In this document: piece after piece, positions 48,001 to 54,000 of the stretch
Layout of the letters: every line of letters begins with the position of its first letter
How positions within the stretch are numbered: the stretch's first letter is position 1
NCBI GenBank assembly: GCA_040398005.1
Contig: JBBAUX010000010.1
Coordinates: 1-64,000 of the forward strand
Source: Opitutales bacterium
GTDB lineage: Bacteria; Verrucomicrobiota; Verrucomicrobiia; Opitutales; UBA953
Length of the DNA stretch: 64,000 bases
Direction: 5' to 3'
Position numbers: made by a program

Positions 48001-51000
48001 AAGTATTTTACCTAACACTCAGCGGCGGAATTATTCTAGGGGCATTTTGCTGGTGGCTGACGGGCGTGAGTGGAGGGCGTTCAGAAAATCGTATCTTAAT
48101 AGGAATCTCCGGCGGCGTCTATGCACTCATGGTCGTGGCCCTACTGGATCGACTAGACCAAGTCATCACCTTGCTTCTTTTCTTTTTTATTCCGGTAAAT
48201 ATTAAAGCACGCTGGCTTCTGGCTATTCTCTTAGTCATCACGCTTTTAGGTTGGGGCTTTGCCGAATTACCTAGTCGACATACCTGGACAAGTTGGAAAC
48301 CCGCACTCGATTGGGCGATGGGCACGAGCCTCGCTCATTCCGCTCACCTCGGGGGATTTTTGTTTGGGTGGCTGATGTGGAAATATCAAAATCAAACAAA
48401 TCTGTCAGGTAGTGGCGCTCTATCTACAATGGGCACCCCTTTCGACGATGATCATTCAACAACTCTTCAGCCGAAAAATAGCCAAAAAATCAGCCAAGTC
48501 CGTGCGGAATTAGACGCCCTACTCGATAAAATTTCCGTCAAGGGTTTCGGCTCGCTCACGGAGTCCGAAAAACGCAGACTCGCCGAACTCAGCGATCAAT
48601 TGAAATAAAATTCCATGACCCTTCGCAACTTCCTACTTTTTCTTTTCGCTTTTCAATTAAGTTACGGTGAAACAGAGAAATTCACGACGACCGAGTTAAT
48701 GCAAAATGAAACACGGGCCACCGTCGCATTACTCGAGCGCCTCCATATCAGCAAAAAGCAGATGCCGGAAGTGGACACGAAAGAAGTGATCATTACCTAC
48801 TGCGAAAATTTAGACCCTGCGAAAATGTACTTCATTCAACCGGAAGTGGATGAATTTGTGAATCGTTACGGACGGAGCTTAGACTTGTATTTAACTCGCG
48901 GAAATCTCACCCCTGCTTTCGAAATCTATCAAGCATTCCGCAAACATGTTCAAGAACGCACGGCGAGTTCTATCCAATCTTTAGATCAAAAAATTGATTT
49001 AACTCAAGCGGGCTTCTTTCCTACTGACCGAAAGAAAGGCAACTGGCCGAGCGATAGTAAAGAAGCCGATGATTTATGGAGTCGCCGTTTAAGGTTGGAT
49101 ATTTTGGGTGAACTATTGGGCGATGACCGCACGGCCAATAACAACCGCAATGGGCCTAAACAAAAGCCCACCCACGAAACTAAGGCGCCCGAAATCACTC
49201 CCGAAAAAATCAAAGAAGCGGTCACCCGTTTAAAAAAGCGTTACGAAAAAATTAAAGTCTATTTAAATTTTGACCCCCAAGAAGTCGAGGAGCTGTTCCT
49301 CAATTCCTATTCTACCCAATACGATCCACACTCTATTTTCTTCTCTCAACAATCCCTTGAAGAGTTTGAAATCGGTATGCGTAATTCGCTCTGCGGAATC
49401 GGCGCCACGCTTAGCGACGAAGAAGGCTATTGTACGATCAAAGAAATCTTACCCGGTGGCCCTCTCTTTCTTTCCGACAAAGCTAAATCGGGAGATAAAA
49501 TTATTGCCGTCGGCCAAGGTAAAGACGGTGAGATGGATGATATCGTGGGGCTACGCCTCCAGAAAACGATTAATCGAATTCGCGGAAAACAAAATACTGT
49601 CGTTAGACTTTTAGTAGAATCAGGCGATGGCAGCGGTCGTAAAACTATCAGCATCGTGCGTGATCAAATTAAGTTATTCAATCAAATGGCCTCAGCTCGT
49701 TGCTTCGAAGGCCGAAATGGAAATCTCGGTGTCGTCGAACTGCCCGCCTTCTACGGAAAAAATCCTGATGGAACTGGCTCGAGTCCAACCAAGGATGTTG
49801 AGCAACTGATTGTTAAACTCAAAACCATGGGAATCCGGGCGCTGATTGTCGATTTACGTAAAAATGGCGGTGGCCTGCTCAATGAAGCCGTCGATTTATC
49901 CGGACTGTTTATTCCAACAGGCTCAATTTTGCAAGTGCGCGACAGCCAGGGACGCATTGATAATTACCGGGATGAGAATGCTAAAGTCGCTTGGGATGGA
50001 CCACTCATCGTTCTCACTTCAAAACTTTCCGCTTCAGCCTCGGAGATTTTCGCAGGTGCGCTGAAAGACCACCGCCGCGCCTTAGTCGTAGGTGATAACA
50101 CGACGCACGGCAAAGGATCAGTCCAAAACATCATTGAACTCAACCGCGTGTTTAAAGAGTTAGATATTAAATCAGCGCTTAAAGTGACCATCCAAAAATG
50201 GTACGCGCCCAGCGGTTCATCGATTCAACTCAAAGGCGTCCCAGCTGATATCATTGTACCTTCCGTATTCTCCGTTCTACCCGTAGCCGAGTCAGACTTA
50301 GACCATCCCCTGCCTTGGGATTCTATTCCGGCTTCACTGACCAAGCCTGATGAAGGTCCGTGGTTAAAGGCGCCGCTCTCCGATAATTTAGTTAATATTC
50401 TCAAAGAAGCATCCGCCAAACGCCAAGCTGAGCTTCCTGAATTTTCTACGCTCAATCACTCTATCGAATGGACGCGCAGTCGCACCAATCGCAAAGAGGT
50501 CTCCATCTCACTCGAACAACGTCGCCAAGAACGCACCGATGATCTCACCTTCCGCGAGCAAGTTCGTAATGAACTCAACCAATTCTCCAAAAATTCGTTC
50601 AAGGCAACGGATGTAAAATTAGATGCGGCGCTAGAACAGGAAAAGAAGGAAGGCGCTGAATACACGAATAAATCTAAGCACCAGTCGCGCATCCGCGAGC
50701 CACTCGAAGATGAGGATTGGCCCGACTACGATATTCAATTGCAAGAAGCCGTCCGCATCGCCGACGACTGGAGCAAGTTAGTAGCTGATAAAACTTCTGC
50801 TACTGCACCTACTCGTTAATTAGCGAGCGCGGTACAGACCGTGGGGATCGTAAATCCACCAAGCGTCGAACGGATTAGATAATGAAGGGAGCTCGTAATA
50901 GGGCTTACCGCTTGCGTCGGCTTTAATCGAAACGCCGGAGTATTCCGATTGGGCCGACTTAGGTAATGCAGCCGTGGGCGCAGGCACTGGCGCAAGCATG

Positions 51001-54000
51001 TCGAGCACCGCCGTCTCTTCGATGCGGTCCACGACGACATCAATCCATTTAAGTTGTTTAGCTTTCTCACCAAAGGCCTGCCAGTCGCCCGTGGAGTCAT
51101 TCTCGTACATCTTCTTAACAAAGTCATCCAGCGAGATGCCCATCTTCTTTGCCACTGGAGTAGCCATGCGTTCAAACCATAACTTAGTGAACTCAATCTG
51201 CTCTTTCAACACAGTCATATTACCTTTGACGCTATTGGAAACCTGGTGATGTAGAATAATGGTATTAGGATAGCAGAAGGATTTTTCGGCGCACGTGGCA
51301 ATCACCGCAGTCATCGACGCGGCAAACCCCTTGACCACCACATAGACAGGGGCCTTCGACGCCGTCATCGCCTTCTGGATGAGGTATCCAGCGGAAACGG
51401 ATCCACCTGGGCTGTTATCGACCACAATGAAAATCGGAAACTCACTCGATTGATTATTATAAAAATTAATACGCTGACAAATGTAGTCGGCCAATTGATC
51501 GGTAACCGCACCATTAAAGGTGATACGACGATCGGTGATATATAAAACCCCATCTAGGTAGGGGTCTTTTAAATATTTCGGTTTAACATTGGCGGCAATT
51601 TTTCGGGCTTCGTCTTCTTTTTGAAAACGATTAATTTCATTGGTTAGGCGGGTCACCGTATTGCTCGCTTCTAATTGTAATTGTTTAGCATCCGCTTCGA
51701 GTTCACGAATTTTATTATTCTTTTCAATCAAGCGAGCATTGGAACGAGCTAGCTCTAGAGCGGACTGGCGCTCGAGTTTAGTGCGTTCCTCTTCTAAAGC
51801 AGAGGCTTCGGCTGAGGCTTTGGCCAAACGGAGTGAGCGCTCAGCGGACAGCTTCATCGCTTCGGAATTTAAGGGTGCGATCTCTTCCATGCGCTTGGCT
51901 TCTTGCAGAGCAAGTTGGGCATCAATTAAAGCCTTCTCCACGCGCATGCGGTCCACTTCCTTCATCTTCTCTTTCTGCTCAGGTGTTAAATCTTCGCGAG
52001 CGATGGCCGGACCCGGTGCTACCGTGGTAGGCAGCGAGGCGTTAGAAGAAGAAGGTGCATTTGCGGTGTCGCCATTCGTTGTCTTAACGGGCGTTGCTTG
52101 GGCAAAAAGAATAGGCCCAACCAACAAGCTGAAGATTTTCAAGGGAGTATGTTTAGACATGTTTTTGTTTTTAAAATTAGCGGTAAATGAATTCGGTAGA
52201 AGGATCGTAAATCCACCAAATATCAAAAGGGGTTAAAGGATTTAAAGCGGTAGCGCCGTTGAGACCATCGGGTTTTATTACACCCAGCGCAGGAACGGCA
52301 GCAGTATTATTTACGCCTTCTTCAGTCATACGATCAACCACATGCGTAACCCATTTTAATTTAACCGCCTCGGTTCCTAAAACTTTCCAATCGCCCGTGG
52401 AAACGGCGGCGTACATTTGGGCGACAAATTCATCGACTGTAATATCCATTTTATTCGCCACTTTTACAAAAATTCTTTCGCACCAAATTTTGGTCCATTT
52501 TAATTGCTGCTCTAACTGGGTCTGATTTCCGGAAAGCGAAGTGCTCGCTTGGTGATGCAAGACAACCGTCTGCGGATAAACGTAGGAACGCTTAGCCATC
52601 GTGGTGATAATTGCGGCCATGGATGCGGCATAACCTTTAACGACCACGTAAACCGGAGCCTGCGATGACTCCATCGCTTGTAAGATTTGGTAACCCGACA
52701 TCACCGAGCCGCCCGGCGAACGTTCTATCACAATAAAGATGGGGGCTGTTTTATCTAAGGCATTATAAAAAGCGATGCGGTTACACACAAACTTTTCTAA
52801 AGTCTCATCGACTATTCCGTTAAAAGGAATTCTGCGGTCAGAAATACGCAAAACGCCTTCGGCAAGAGGTTCCAGAGGATACTCGATTTTCCCGCTCGTG
52901 GTTTCGACTACTTTTTTCTGCAGGCGGGCAATCTCCCCCAATTTTTCTAAGCGTGCGTATTCAACGGTGGCCTGCACATTGGCGAGTTTCACATCCGCTT
53001 CAAATTCTGCACGGCGGGCTTCTTTTTCGCCTGAAGCCAGGGAGGCCTTAATGTTGGCAATAGAAGTCTTCAAGTTGAGCTGGGATTTTTCGGCATCGTC
53101 CATCGCTCCGGCGGCATCGGTCTTGAGTTGGCGGATTCGACTTTCTACCTCGAGTTTTTTAATCTCTAGATCGGACGCTTGTTTGGCCTGGCGGCGTTGC
53201 GATTCTACTAAATCTAAACGTGTGCGGACAATCTCCGCTTCCACTTCGGTTTGAATCGTTTCCGGGGTTTTTTCGATACGACGAGGCTGGGCCTGCAATG
53301 CAGTTACAAAAAGCGTAAAAATAAGGGCCAAACGGGTCATCGGAGGGTGACTCGTAAATTGTCAGATAAATGGTTCCCTTACACTCAAAAATTCGCAAAT
53401 CTTACGGCATGCAGCCGAATGACCCCATAACCTTCAAGAATCGCCATACGGGTCGGATTGAAACCGAACAGGTCTACGGCGAAGCTTGGCTACAAAGAAT
53501 CTACGGTAACCCCCTGGGCAAGGTCGCCCTGCACGCCCTAGTGAAACGTTCAATATTCTCCAAAATTTATGGCTGGGGCATGGACCGTCCCAACAGCGCG
53601 CAGCGGATTGCACCCTTTATTAAAACCTACCAATTAGATTCATCGGAGTTCGCTGATGAAAATATTAGTTCATATAAAAGTTTTAATGATTTCTTTTATC
53701 GCAAATTAAAACCCGCAGCACGTCCGATCGACGGACAAACGGATTGTGCGGTTTTACCGGCCGACGGTAGACATTTAGGCTTTCAAGATATTTCCAAAAT
53801 CAGCGGCGTTTTTGCCAAGGGACAGACCTTCGACATAAATAATTTTCTCGGCGATCAGTCTTTAGCGGAACGCTATAAGAATGGCGTCTTAGTGTGTTCG
53901 CGCCTTTGTCCGGTAGATTATCACCGTTTTCATTTTCCTGTGTCGGGCATTCCGACTAAGCCTACCTTAATCAACGGCTCGCTCTTTTCGGTAAACCCTT

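What a model noticed while it worked through the whole genome (the two positions that open the first line are those of the whole stretch)
50820..53340. Exported ClpP-fold protease pair on coiled-coil stalks
Two tandem genes (g01253, 446 aa; g01254, 387 aa) encode ClpP-family (S14) domains with the Ser-His-Asp triad in place, but each begins with a signal-peptide-like N-terminus and a single helix of about 130 residues and ends in a conserved PFDxWWIYDP tail; the genome also has two ordinary ClpPs. Boldest reading: they form a periplasmic, ATP-independent, self-compartmentalised ClpP-like protease on coiled-coil stalks, a new envelope quality-control machine of Opitutales that databases label 'ATP-dependent Clp protease proteolytic subunit'. 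New would be a ClpP ring working outside the cytoplasm without an AAA+ partner.
Evidence so far: Pfam CLP_protease 78 and 67 bits at residues 209-352 and 167-305 only. The first 22 and 17 residues are hydrophobic and end in A-Q-A and L-Q-A. MAFFT with the canonical ClpPs g00661 and g01250: the Ser of GxxASM, the His of HHQ and the Asp align. AF2 (12 rows, pLDDT 70): 1-54 disordered, one helix 60-189, ClpP core 205-382, small C-terminal beta unit. 1076 homologues E<=1e-3; the best 120 are 337-515 aa, PF00574 as main family, named 'ATP-dependent Clp protease' or unnamed; sources say Verrucomicrobiota, Opitutales, Puniceicoccales. Invariant in 12 rows incl. the paralogue: S282, H304, H305, D359, W435, D438. 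Next gene is the periplasmic tail-specific protease g01252; CLP_protease beside TSP [...]
(Added by a program. Inside this text positions count along the whole contig: contig position 1 is position 1 of the stretch shown here. "Call 12" and the like, gene names such as g00115 and contig names such as C1 are that model's own, and its searches are not shown. The text may have been shortened before it was handed on; [...] marks where a part breaks off. The agent that wrote the report below was given it as the finding of a first reader that could run no searches.)

Follow-up and report, generated by a model that had tools for sequence, protein, structure and literature searches.

The report
Exported ClpP-like protease gene pair
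Two neighbouring genes of a small-genome lake bacterium encode ClpP-type proteases that carry export signals, a long helical arm and a special tail, so they probably work as a partner-less protease ring in the cell envelope, a form of ClpP that seems not to have been studied.

Summary
Genes A (50820-52160, minus strand, 446 aa) and B (52177-53340, minus strand, 387 aa) are real, 16 nt apart, and both have the same parts: an N-terminus like a signal peptide, a helix of about 120 residues, a ClpP core with Ser-His-Asp, and a conserved aromatic C-terminal tail.

- The family is not specific to Opitutales. It has about 194 clusters at 50% identity and occurs patchily in Verrucomicrobiota, Planctomycetota, Elusimicrobia, Omnitrophota, Acidobacteria and some Proteobacteria.
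- The Tsp gene converges on gene A and sits beside the pair only in near-identical relatives. It is not evidence of a link.
- ClpP-fold proteases outside the cytoplasm are already known (SppA, NfeD).

What seems undescribed is a true S14-type ClpP core that is exported:
- The core is closest to solved ClpPs (Z 17-20, against 14-15 for SppA).
- N-termini like signal peptides or lipoprotein signals occur in 115 of 133 representatives.
- The inter-ring Arg sensor of ClpP is replaced by Gly, and the site equivalent to the AAA+/ADEP docking pocket is remodelled.
- A four-copy model (score 0.63, best control 0.00) places the tail of one subunit on its neighbour, next to the catalytic strands.

Export, oligomer state, activity and substrate are untested. 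I rate it a new variant of a known kind.

The parts
52177..53340 (-). Gene B (g01254), 387 aa, the upstream member of the pair
   Evidence: ORF. PF00574 68.2 bits. AlphaFold2 mean pLDDT 86.5.
53290..53340 (-). B residues 1-17: N-terminus like a Sec signal peptide (MTR, 12-residue hydrophobic core, A-L-Q-A)
   Evidence: B-type orthologues have the same layout.
52903..53265 (-). B residues 26-146: long helical arm, kinked at 78-81
   Evidence: helices 26-77 and 82-146.
52321..52863 (-). B residues 160-340: ClpP-type core with Ser240 (52621-52623), His263 (52552-52554) and Asp317 (52390-52392)
52180..52254 (-). B residues 363-387: C-terminal tail with the motif PFDIWWIYDP
50820..52160 (-). Gene A (g01253), 446 aa, the downstream member, 16 nt after B
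   Evidence: PF00574 79.2 bits. AlphaFold2 mean pLDDT 84.4.
52095..52160 (-). A residues 1-22: N-terminus like a Sec signal peptide ending in A-Q-A
   Evidence: In genus g2 the A-type orthologues carry a lipobox-like FAGC instead.
51972..52094 (-). A residues 23-63: disordered linker rich in Ser, Thr, Pro and Ala
   Evidence: pLDDT 40-50; sequence.
51594..51971 (-). A residues 64-189: a single helix of 126 residues. That is about 19 nm at 0.15 nm per residue (my arithmetic).
   Evidence: helix 64-189, pLDDT 94-97 over residues 100-180. The family-averaged hydrophobic pattern is periodic.
51006..51563 (-). A residues 200-385: ClpP-type core including the handle helix 315-340, with Ser282 (51315-51317), His305 (51246-51248) and Asp359 (51084-51086)
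50823..50954 (-). A residues 403-446: C-terminal beta unit with the family motif LPxLxNPFDAWWIYDPxxxYR
   Evidence: pLDDT 93-94. The motif is present in 98 of 106 complete representatives. Residues 426 and 428-432 lie in the predicted interface between subunits.

Best explanation
A and B are two old paralogues of a distinct, undescribed clade of S14 (ClpP-type) serine peptidases that are exported across the inner membrane.

Each protein is made with a Sec signal peptide. In some other members this is a lipoprotein signal. The mature protein has a helical arm of about 120 residues, a ClpP core with Ser-His-Asp and the handle helix, and a C-terminal beta unit.

The cores probably assemble head to tail through the lateral interface that ClpP also uses. 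The conserved C-terminal motif (P-F-D-x-aromatic-aromatic, always 13-17 residues from the end) of one subunit is predicted to lie on the next subunit. There it sits on the strands that lead to the catalytic Ser and His, beside the site where AAA+ IGF loops or ADEPs bind canonical ClpP.

The periplasm has no ATP. The N-terminal gate region of ClpP is not alignable with this family. The docking-pocket rim is changed, and the Arg of the inter-ring Asp/Arg sensor is replaced. The enzyme therefore most likely works without an unfoldase, on peptides or unfolded envelope proteins, or on one specific envelope substrate.

Shown here: the gene structure, the fold class, conservation of the triad, the family-wide N-terminal signals, and the family's distribution. 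Inferred: export, oligomer form, the role of the tail, independence from ATP, and the substrate.
For: Fold and active site:
- Foldseek's best matches are solved ClpPs (6cfd, TM 0.81-0.83 on the target, 34% identity, E 1e-14).
- VIA-align gives ClpP Z 16.9-20.1, SppA Z 14.6 and 13.9, NfeD 1510-N Z 12.7, and crotonases Z 12.6 or less.
- A PDB profile search finds only ClpPs (best E 1.6e-25).
- Ser282, His305 and Asp359 align with the triad of the genome's own ClpPs. They are kept in 111, 111 and 97 of 115 rows.

Export:
- A strict rule of 133 full-length representatives signal-bearing (97 type I, 18 lipobox). The same rule of 937 long ORFs of this genome.
- If a hydrophobic core of at least 10 residues is required, 102 of 133 family members qualify. 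In the 20 canonical ClpP loci every signal call had a core of only 8-9 residues, so none of the 20 would qualify.
- There is no second hydrophobic segment outside the buried core strand.

Family:
- 194 clusters at 50% identity score E<=1e-30.
- The family is monophyletic against ClpP (SH-aLRT 100, quick tree).
- The tail motif is present in 98 of 106 complete representatives, and its Asp lies 13-17 residues from the C-terminus in 96 of those 98.

Assembly:
- Four copies of A residues 200-446 scored ipSAE 0.56, 0.63 and 0.63, against a best control of 0.00. Partner pLDDT was 81-82, and the runs agreed in at least 60% of their contacts.
- In the tool's calibration, 20 of 30 solved homomers and 1 of 23 solved single chains reached the mark.
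- The donor and acceptor surfaces differ. Tail residues 428-432 touch residues 249, 251, 278-281, 301, 303 and 361 of the neighbour.

No AAA+ docking or ring stacking of the canonical kind:
- The residue before the catalytic Asp is Gly in 113 of 115 rows. The genome's own ClpPs have Arg there, and that Arg belongs to the Asp170/Arg171 sensor needed for tetradecamers (PMC7003903, passage read).
- Of the 16 residues listed as the E. coli ADEP site (bioRxiv 10.1101/2023.03.01.530711, passage read), only 7 equivalents stay hydrophobic in at least 95% of rows. Five equivalents are polar (hydrophobic in under 15% of rows); four of these are strongly conserved (R212 in 98, N235 in 110, N236 in 102, K277 in 102 of 115) and the fifth, at 232, is mostly His or Asn.

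Real genes in nature:
- The tandem pair is kept in all 7 genomes of family f1.
- Contigs from RNA libraries of two lake-water studies, 90-95% alike, cover most of both genes.
Against: - No signal-peptide predictor was available. My rule is crude: 27% of this genome's long ORFs pass it, and 6 of 20 canonical ClpP loci pass at some alternative start.
- B has Arg-Arg at positions +3 and +4 after the presumed cleavage site, which is unusual for Sec substrates (recalled knowledge).
- The complex test may pass simply because the protein resembles solved ClpP rings. It used four copies, unlike its calibration, and it cannot give the ring size.
- The mapping onto the ADEP pocket rests on E. coli numbering (Ser97), which I recalled. 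Only 4 of the 16 pocket equivalents are themselves in the predicted interface list.
- Asp359 is Asn or Glu in 17 of 115 rows, and Ser282 is lost in 4 of 115.
- No gene neighbour is conserved across phyla that would hint at a substrate.
- The genome already has HtrA, SppA and Tsp, so no gap in envelope proteolysis calls for this enzyme.
- RNA-library contigs do not prove transcription.
Confidence: 0.6

Rival explanations
1. The N-terminal hydrophobic stretch is not cleaved. The protein is a membrane-anchored, periplasm-facing ClpP-fold protease, as SppA and NfeD are, and the long helix holds the protease at a set distance from the inner membrane.
For: Cleavage is only inferred from A-x-A-like motifs. 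18 of 133 representatives have lipoboxes, so they are membrane-tethered anyway. SppA and NfeD are the next-best structural matches (Z 12.7-14.6).
Against: The hydrophobic cores span mostly 10-16 residues, which is short for a transmembrane helix, and only 1 of 133 was flagged as TM-like. Small residues at -3 and -1 follow the core in A and B. The catalytic apparatus is Ser-His-Asp. The Ser-Lys dyad of S49 and NfeD is recalled knowledge.
Confidence: 0.15
2. It is a dedicated processing protease for one envelope substrate, not a general self-compartmentalised degradation machine. The helical arm and the tail would serve substrate or partner recognition.
For: The distribution is patchy, like that of an accessory gene (14 of 151 and 16 of 401 genomes). 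General envelope proteases are already present. In 8 of 60 related loci, all Verrucomicrobiales, a conserved membrane protein with two transmembrane helices lies directly upstream.
Against: No partner is conserved across phyla, and that membrane protein has no homologue in this genome. The head-to-tail oligomer prediction and the retained handle helix fit a chambered enzyme. This reading concerns the role only and is compatible with export and assembly.
Confidence: 0.2
3. It is a cytoplasmic ClpP variant, or a non-catalytic ClpR-like scaffold, and the hydrophobic N-terminus is not an export signal.
For: Databases label it 'ATP-dependent Clp protease proteolytic subunit'. My signal rule has false positives.
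Against: The signal-like N-terminus is kept across members only 30-50% identical, with lipoboxes in 18. The triad is conserved. The N-terminal gate region of ClpP does not align, the docking-pocket rim is changed, and the inter-ring Arg is lost. All NCBIfam ClpP models score far below their cut-offs.
Confidence: 0.04
4. It is a domesticated phage prohead (head-maturation) protease of the ClpP type.
For: Weak matches to head-maturation protease models: NF045542 at 55-58 bits and phrog_2976/phrog_94 at 59-65 bits.
Against: The genome's ordinary ClpP matches the same phage models better (134 bits). NF045542 has a cut-off of 120 bits. No phage genes lie nearby. The family has conserved export signals.
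Confidence: 0.01

Closest known systems
ClpP (MEROPS S14, Pfam PF00574), the proteolytic core of ATP-dependent Clp proteases
   Same: It has the same fold, including the handle helix (Z 17-20; TM 0.81-0.83). The Ser-His-Asp triad sits in the same motifs: xASM, HQ, and D after a turn. A lateral head-to-tail interface is predicted.
   Different: It has an N-terminal export signal and a helix of about 120 residues in place of the axial gate loops and helix A. It has a C-terminal extension of 60 residues with a conserved motif. The Arg of the inter-ring sensor is Gly. The rim of the ADEP/IGF pocket is replaced by conserved polar residues. It scores 40-75 bits against NCBIfam ClpP models whose cut-offs are 228-361 bits.
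SppA, signal peptide peptidase A (MEROPS S49, PF01343)
   Same: It is a ClpP-fold serine protease that works on the outer side of the inner membrane without ATP. This is recalled knowledge; the entry titles are. It is a structural match at Z 14.6 (4kwb) and 13.9 (3bez). The title of entry 4kwb reports C-termini bound in the active sites, a loose parallel to the tail predicted here next to the neighbour's catalytic strands.
   Different: Sequence matches to the SppA models are marginal (20-27 bits against cut-offs of 155-746). The family has His and Asp in the ClpP positions, whereas SppA uses a Ser-Lys dyad (recalled). The genome has a separate SppA.
NfeD / STOPP 1510-N membrane protease (PF25145 NfeD1b_N and relatives)
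   Same: It is a ClpP-fold protease tethered at the membrane. It matches at Z 12.7 to 2deo and weakly to PF25145 (22-29 bits).
   Different: The scores are below the Pfam cut-off of 40. One search found no NfeD C-terminal domain in A or B and no stomatin (Band 7) family among the 12 proteins scanned. The catalytic residues are of the ClpP type.
ClpP1/ClpP2 paralogue pairs (mycobacteria, Listeria, Chlamydia)
   Same: Two diverged paralogues are encoded in tandem and kept together in all 7 genomes of the family. This invites the idea of a mixed complex.
   Different: Those pairs are cytoplasmic and depend on AAA+ partners (titles and abstracts listed). Most members of the present family are single-copy. 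No test of A binding B was run.

Membership tests
ClpP sensu stricto (S14; TIGR00493 / NF001368 equivalogs) | Scores above the curated cut-off of the ClpP equivalog and subfamily models | tested here: not met
   A scores 56.2 bits and B 39.8 against the TIGR00493 cut-off of 308.6. For NF001368 they score 67.3 and 52.8 against 249. The genome's ClpP at 47056-47703 reaches 237.7 against the 228 cut-off of NF009205.
ClpP sensu stricto (S14) | ClpP fold with the Ser-His-Asp triad in the canonical positions | tested here: met
   Conservation is 111, 111 and 97 of 115 rows.
ClpP sensu stricto (S14) | N-terminal axial loops, and a hydrophobic apical pocket for the IGF loops of ClpX/ClpA | tested here: not met
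   The Pfam match starts at profile position 15, and the N-terminal region does not align. Only 7 of 16 pocket equivalents stay hydrophobic. R212, N235, N236 and K277 are conserved instead. The residue mapping depends on recalled E. coli numbering.
ClpP sensu stricto (S14) | Asp/Arg oligomerisation sensor that holds two heptamers together | tested here: not met
   The Arg equivalent is Gly358 in 113 of 115 rows, and the Asp equivalent is Asp in only 41 of 115. The role of the sensor is taken from PMC7003903.
ClpP sensu stricto (S14) | Tetradecameric chamber; activity coupled to an AAA+ unfoldase | not testable with these tools
   Only a four-copy model was possible. The number of rings and their size are unknown.
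Pfam PF00574 CLP_protease (broad family) | Score above the gathering threshold of 20.2 bits | tested here: met
   79.2 and 68.2 bits.
SppA (S49, PF01343 / TIGR00706) | Match to the S49 models above their cut-offs | tested here: not met
   TIGR00706 scores 23.5 and 21.6 bits against a cut-off of 155. PF01343 is not among the Pfam hits.
NfeD-type protease (PF25145) | Match above the cut-off of 40 bits | tested here: not met
   21.8 and 28.6 bits.
Sec- or lipoprotein-exported protein | N-terminal signal peptide: a positive n-region, an h-region of 8-20 residues, then small-x-small or a lipobox | tested here: inconclusive
   My own rule is met by A, by B and by 115 of 133 representatives. The rule is crude (controls), and no trained predictor or experiment was available.
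Phage ClpP-related head maturation protease (NF045542) | Score above 120 bits, with phage structural genes nearby | tested here: not met
   55.3 and 57.9 bits. The neighbours are cellular genes.

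The most novel reading that the evidence does not exclude
This would be a new class of self-compartmentalised envelope protease: an exported ClpP ring that needs neither ATP nor an unfoldase. Its own C-terminal aromatic motif, donated to the neighbouring subunit, would do what AAA+ IGF loops (or ADEP antibiotics) and ring stacking do for ClpP, namely lock the ring and align the catalytic triad. The N-terminal helices, about 19 nm or more in length, would bundle into a stalk that positions the chamber within the periplasm. In this lineage the complex would be a mixed A/B assembly.
Probability: 0.25. Interest if true: 0.85.

Novelty: new variant of a known kind. Interest (0 to 1): 0.62.

Why it matters
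ClpP is a textbook case of a protease that is kept harmless by needing an ATP-driven partner. It is also an antibiotic target because ADEPs bypass that control. A natural, widespread ClpP lineage that has moved to the ATP-free periplasm would show how evolution solved partner-independent activation. The family may do this with a built-in tail at the cleft between subunits.

It would also add a fourth type of envelope protease beside DegP/HtrA, Tsp/Prc and SppA in the PVC bacteria, Elusimicrobia and others. Finally, several hundred database entries labelled 'ATP-dependent Clp protease proteolytic subunit' would be shown to be mislabelled. The pair is kept in a 1.44-Mb streamlined genome, which suggests that it earns its place there.

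Tried and rejected
- **Tsp link.** Tsp is convergent with gene A. A Tsp-like gene lies next to the family gene in only 3 of 60 related loci (L013, L014, L018), all at 80-95% identity. In the same-genus genome G030 and in L016, L030 and L045, a cytochrome-c/PA14 gene follows instead. In L021 a tricorn-like S41 gene lies two genes away, which I take as coincidence.
- **Conserved neighbourhood.** Clustering the ORFs of 60 loci found no partner shared across phyla. Cluster 1 was an antisense artefact.
- **Heptad test on single sequences.** Power at period 3.5 gave z = 0.49 for A and -0.2 for B, so a classical coiled coil is not shown. The family-averaged profile is periodic near 7/3, and 0 of 300 shuffles reached its power.
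- **Promoter and terminator scan.** Nothing above chance: 2 promoter-like sites against 4.1 expected, and 5 terminator-like sites against 4.8 expected.
- **Replacement of missing proteases.** Rejected, because HtrA-like and SppA genes are present.
- **Alignment A1 for the locus scan.** It was too diverse, so a 16-row alignment was used.
- **Literature.** Searches found no paper on an exported or periplasmic ClpP. In the rows listed, the phrases 'periplasmic ClpP', 'extracytoplasmic ClpP', 'secreted ClpP' and 'exported ClpP' had zero occurrences. [quoted passage not shown]
- **Protein atlas.** It gave only the generic name.
- **RNA cover of the Tsp stretch.** Parts of Tsp had no RNA-library contigs. 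I draw nothing from that.
- **Sequencing runs.** Runs X1 and X4 held almost nothing, and the shares of 0.05-0.06 are small.
- **Tree.** The careful tree did not finish, so only the quick tree is reported.

Full report
**What is in the sequence.** On the minus strand, gene B (52177-53340, 387 aa) is followed after 16 nt by gene A (50820-52160, 446 aa). An in-frame TTG 22 codons upstream of A's ATG would overlap B. Homologues begin at the MSKH start, so the 446-aa form is taken.

The neighbours are as follows:
- A tight plus-strand run of three genes: a ClpP-type gene (47056-47703), a rhomboid (47715-48608) and a Tsp/Prc S41 protease (48615-50819). This run converges on A, and the stop codons abut.
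- Phosphatidylserine decarboxylase (53370-54314), which diverges from B.

The genome is 1.44 Mb and 93.9% complete. It has four PF00574 matches: two ordinary ClpPs (267 and 211 bits), plus A and B.

**Domain anatomy.** Pfam CLP_protease scores 79.2 bits for A (residues 209-352) and 68.2 bits for B (167-305). The hits to NfeD1b_N and SDH_protease fall below their cut-offs. All NCBIfam ClpP models score far below their cut-offs.

AlphaFold2 with a 115-row alignment gave A a mean pLDDT of 84.4. The model has these parts:
- residues 1-63 disordered;
- one helix, 64-189;
- the core, 200-385, including a 26-residue handle-like helix (315-340);
- a weak linker;
- a confident beta unit, 403-446.

B (84 rows, mean pLDDT 86.5) has the same plan, with its arm kinked at residues 78-81.

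The core is a true ClpP core:
- Foldseek's best hits are solved ClpPs (TM 0.81-0.83, 34% identity).
- An aligner that does not depend on Foldseek ranks ClpPs at Z 16.9-20.1, ahead of SppA (14.6 and 13.9), NfeD 1510-N (12.7) and crotonases (12.6 or less).
- No member of the family itself has a solved structure.

**Active site.** I aligned A and B with the genome's own ClpPs using MAFFT. Ser282 of A (Ser240 of B) falls on the ClpP serine. His305 (His263) falls on the His of IHQP. Asp359 (Asp317) falls on the ClpP aspartate. Over 115 family rows these residues are kept in 111, 111 and 97 rows; the Asp is Asn in 12 and Glu in 5. W435 and D438 are not invariant once more rows are used.

**Export.** No trained predictor was available, so I wrote a rule. 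It requires a basic n-region, an uncharged hydrophobic core within the first 25 residues, and then either small-x-small or a lipobox.
- A, B and 115 of 133 full-length representatives pass (97 type I, 18 lipobox). Of this genome's ORFs of at least 200 aa, 252 of 937 pass.
- The rule is lenient. Among 20 canonical ClpP loci, trying every upstream start, 6 gave a hit, all with a hydrophobic core of only 8-9 residues.
- Requiring a core of at least 10 residues leaves 102 of 133 family members and none of the 20 controls.
- An earlier and looser rule gave 121 of 133, against 372 of 937.

The A-type orthologues in the sister genus carry a lipobox-like FAGC. A lipoprotein signal makes sense only for an exported protein. 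The hydrophobic cores are too short for a membrane helix, and there is no second hydrophobic segment apart from the buried core strand. I therefore regard export as likely but unproven. B's Arg-Arg just after the presumed cleavage site is a small oddity.

**The helical arm.** A simple Fourier test for a 3.5-residue period on A or B alone is not significant. The family-averaged hydrophobicity along the arm is strongly periodic. Its peak lies near 2.27 residues, close to the 7/3 harmonic of a heptad, and 0 of 300 shuffles reached that power. The arm thus has a conserved hydrophobic stripe with register shifts, which fits helix-helix packing better than a charged single helix. 'Coiled-coil stalk' remains an inference.

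The region from the first residue to the core (the DRR motif) has a median of 234 residues across the family (quartiles 204-274). The arms of A and B are therefore at the short end.

**The tail.** Of 106 representatives judged complete, 98 carry the motif (consensus LPRLxPFDxYFxYNPDxYYR) within the last 40 residues. Its Asp lies 13-17 residues from the C-terminus in 96 of those 98. The 115-row alignment was chosen with this motif, so the invariance of D432 is circular; the count of 98 of 106 is the fair figure. The tail is not hydrophobic, so it does not resemble a transmembrane sorting signal.

**Assembly.** Four copies of A residues 200-446, with the 115-row alignment, scored ipSAE 0.56, 0.63 and 0.63, against 0.00 for the best of three controls. 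Partner pLDDT was 81-82, and the runs agreed in at least 60% of their contacts. In the tool's calibration, 20 of 30 solved homomers and 1 of 23 solved single chains reached the mark. The pass may reflect likeness to solved ClpP rings, and the job differed from the calibration because it used four copies and my own alignment.

The interface is head to tail, with different donor and acceptor surfaces, as expected for a ring or a helix. It includes tail residues 426 and 428-432 of the donor. These touch residues 249, 251, 278-281, 301, 303 and 361 of the acceptor, which lie on the strands that end at Ser282 and His305 and next to Asp359.

**Comparison with ClpP control elements.** I took the E. 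coli ADEP-site residues from a preprint (10.1101/2023.03.01.530711; passages read). I mapped them through the genome's own ClpP, assuming that the catalytic Ser is residue 97, which I recalled; the Ser-His and Ser-Asp spacing fits.
- Only 7 of the 16 equivalents stay hydrophobic in at least 95% of rows.
- Four equivalents are conserved as polar residues: R212 in 98, N235 in 110, N236 in 102 and K277 in 102 of 115 rows. The equivalent at 232 is also mostly polar (His or Asn), and the Phe82 equivalent is Ser, Ala or Gly.
- Four pocket equivalents (232, 267, 277, 297) are in the predicted interface list, and others lie within one residue of it.
- The residue before the catalytic Asp is Gly in 113 of 115 rows. 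The genome's ClpPs have Arg there.
- In S. aureus ClpP the Asp170/Arg171 pair holds the two heptamers together, and mutating either residue gives inactive heptamers (PMC7003903; passage read).

The family has therefore lost or changed the elements that canonical ClpP uses to dock an unfoldase and to stack two rings, and it has gained a conserved tail at the cleft between subunits. My working model is that the tail takes over their job. This is inference only.

**Family and distribution.** An exhaustive search of cluster representatives found 194 clusters with E<=1e-30, and 3320 with E<=1e-3, which include ordinary ClpPs. A scan of one genome per species returned about 60 family loci before ordinary ClpPs began. 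Those loci come from:
- Opitutia, Verrucomicrobiales (Akkermansiaceae, Luteolibacter, and the cultured Haloferula luteola YC6886) and Kiritimatiellae;
- Planctomycetota, Elusimicrobia, Omnitrophota and an acidobacterium;
- Beggiatoa and Thiothrix relatives, and a Campylobacteraceae MAG.

Within the window's own order, 14 of 151 sampled genomes have the family. Within the phylum, 16 of 401 do, but only four candidates per genome were scored there, so that count may be low. All 7 genomes of the window's family f1 carry the tandem pair.

In a quick tree (SH-aLRT only, because the careful search did not finish), the family is separated from ClpP with support 100. The upstream (B-type) copies of both genera group with support 89, together with three other representatives. 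The duplication therefore predates the two genera. Database names are generic or absent.

**Context and expression.** No neighbour is conserved across phyla. Tsp lies beside the gene in only 3 of 60 loci, all close relatives. Lake-water metatranscriptome libraries from two studies hold contigs 90-95% alike that cover most of A and B. One 172-nt contig in a third run is identical to the window. This shows presence in RNA libraries, not proven transcription.

**Known or new.** ClpP-fold proteases acting outside the cytoplasm without ATP are known: SppA and NfeD, both of which turn up as weaker structural matches. The bare idea is therefore not new. Three full-text searches found no description of an exported S14-type ClpP. 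Papers in subscription journals are not covered by that library.

Two earlier notes of this scan describe a different, roughly 200-aa ClpP-fold protein with a signal peptide in jumbo phages. I did not test any relation to it.

**Verdict.** This is a real and widespread but unstudied clade, best called a new variant of a known kind. I put export at about 0.8, a ring-like oligomer at about 0.6, the activator role of the tail at about 0.3, and a general quality-control role at about 0.3.

Noticed in passing
window 47056-50819 (+): Three genes form a tight run with gaps of 11 and 6 nt. They are a ClpP-type gene (215 aa, PF00574 211 bits) with an acidic N-terminal extension of about 35 residues and no Gly-rich loop after HQP, a rhomboid with DUF6576, and Tsp/Prc. 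A ClpP sharing an apparent operon with two envelope or membrane proteases is unusual. The full run recurs in L013, and Tsp with the rhomboid recurs in L018.
   Followed up: partly
L023:4901-5755, L026:4892-5752, L028:5042-5899 and five more Verrucomicrobiales loci: A protein of about 285 aa, with a transmembrane helix at each end and no Pfam match, lies directly upstream of the family gene in 8 of 60 loci. TatC lies upstream of the family gene in 7 of 60 loci, and an MBL-fold gene lies downstream in 5 of 60. It has no homologue in this genome by tblastn. It is a possible lineage-specific partner or substrate.
   Followed up: partly
window 50667-53336, from runs X2 and X3: Contigs from two lake-water metatranscriptome libraries, 90-95% alike, cover most of genes A and B. 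This places the organism and its relatives in lakes.
   Followed up: partly
window 53340/53370: Only 29 bp separate the divergent start codons of gene B and the phosphatidylserine decarboxylase gene. The decarboxylase model match begins at residue 20, so its true start may lie further downstream.
   Followed up: no
window 55594-56181 (+): A 195-aa protein lies between an Rrf2 regulator and MscL. Its only hit is a weak one to a coiled-coil family (TPR_MLP1_2, 19 bits).
   Followed up: no
alignment A1 (115 rows): Four rows lack the catalytic Ser (Gly in 3, Asn in 1), and 17 have Asn or Glu for the Asp. Some members may be inactive partners like ClpR.
   Followed up: no
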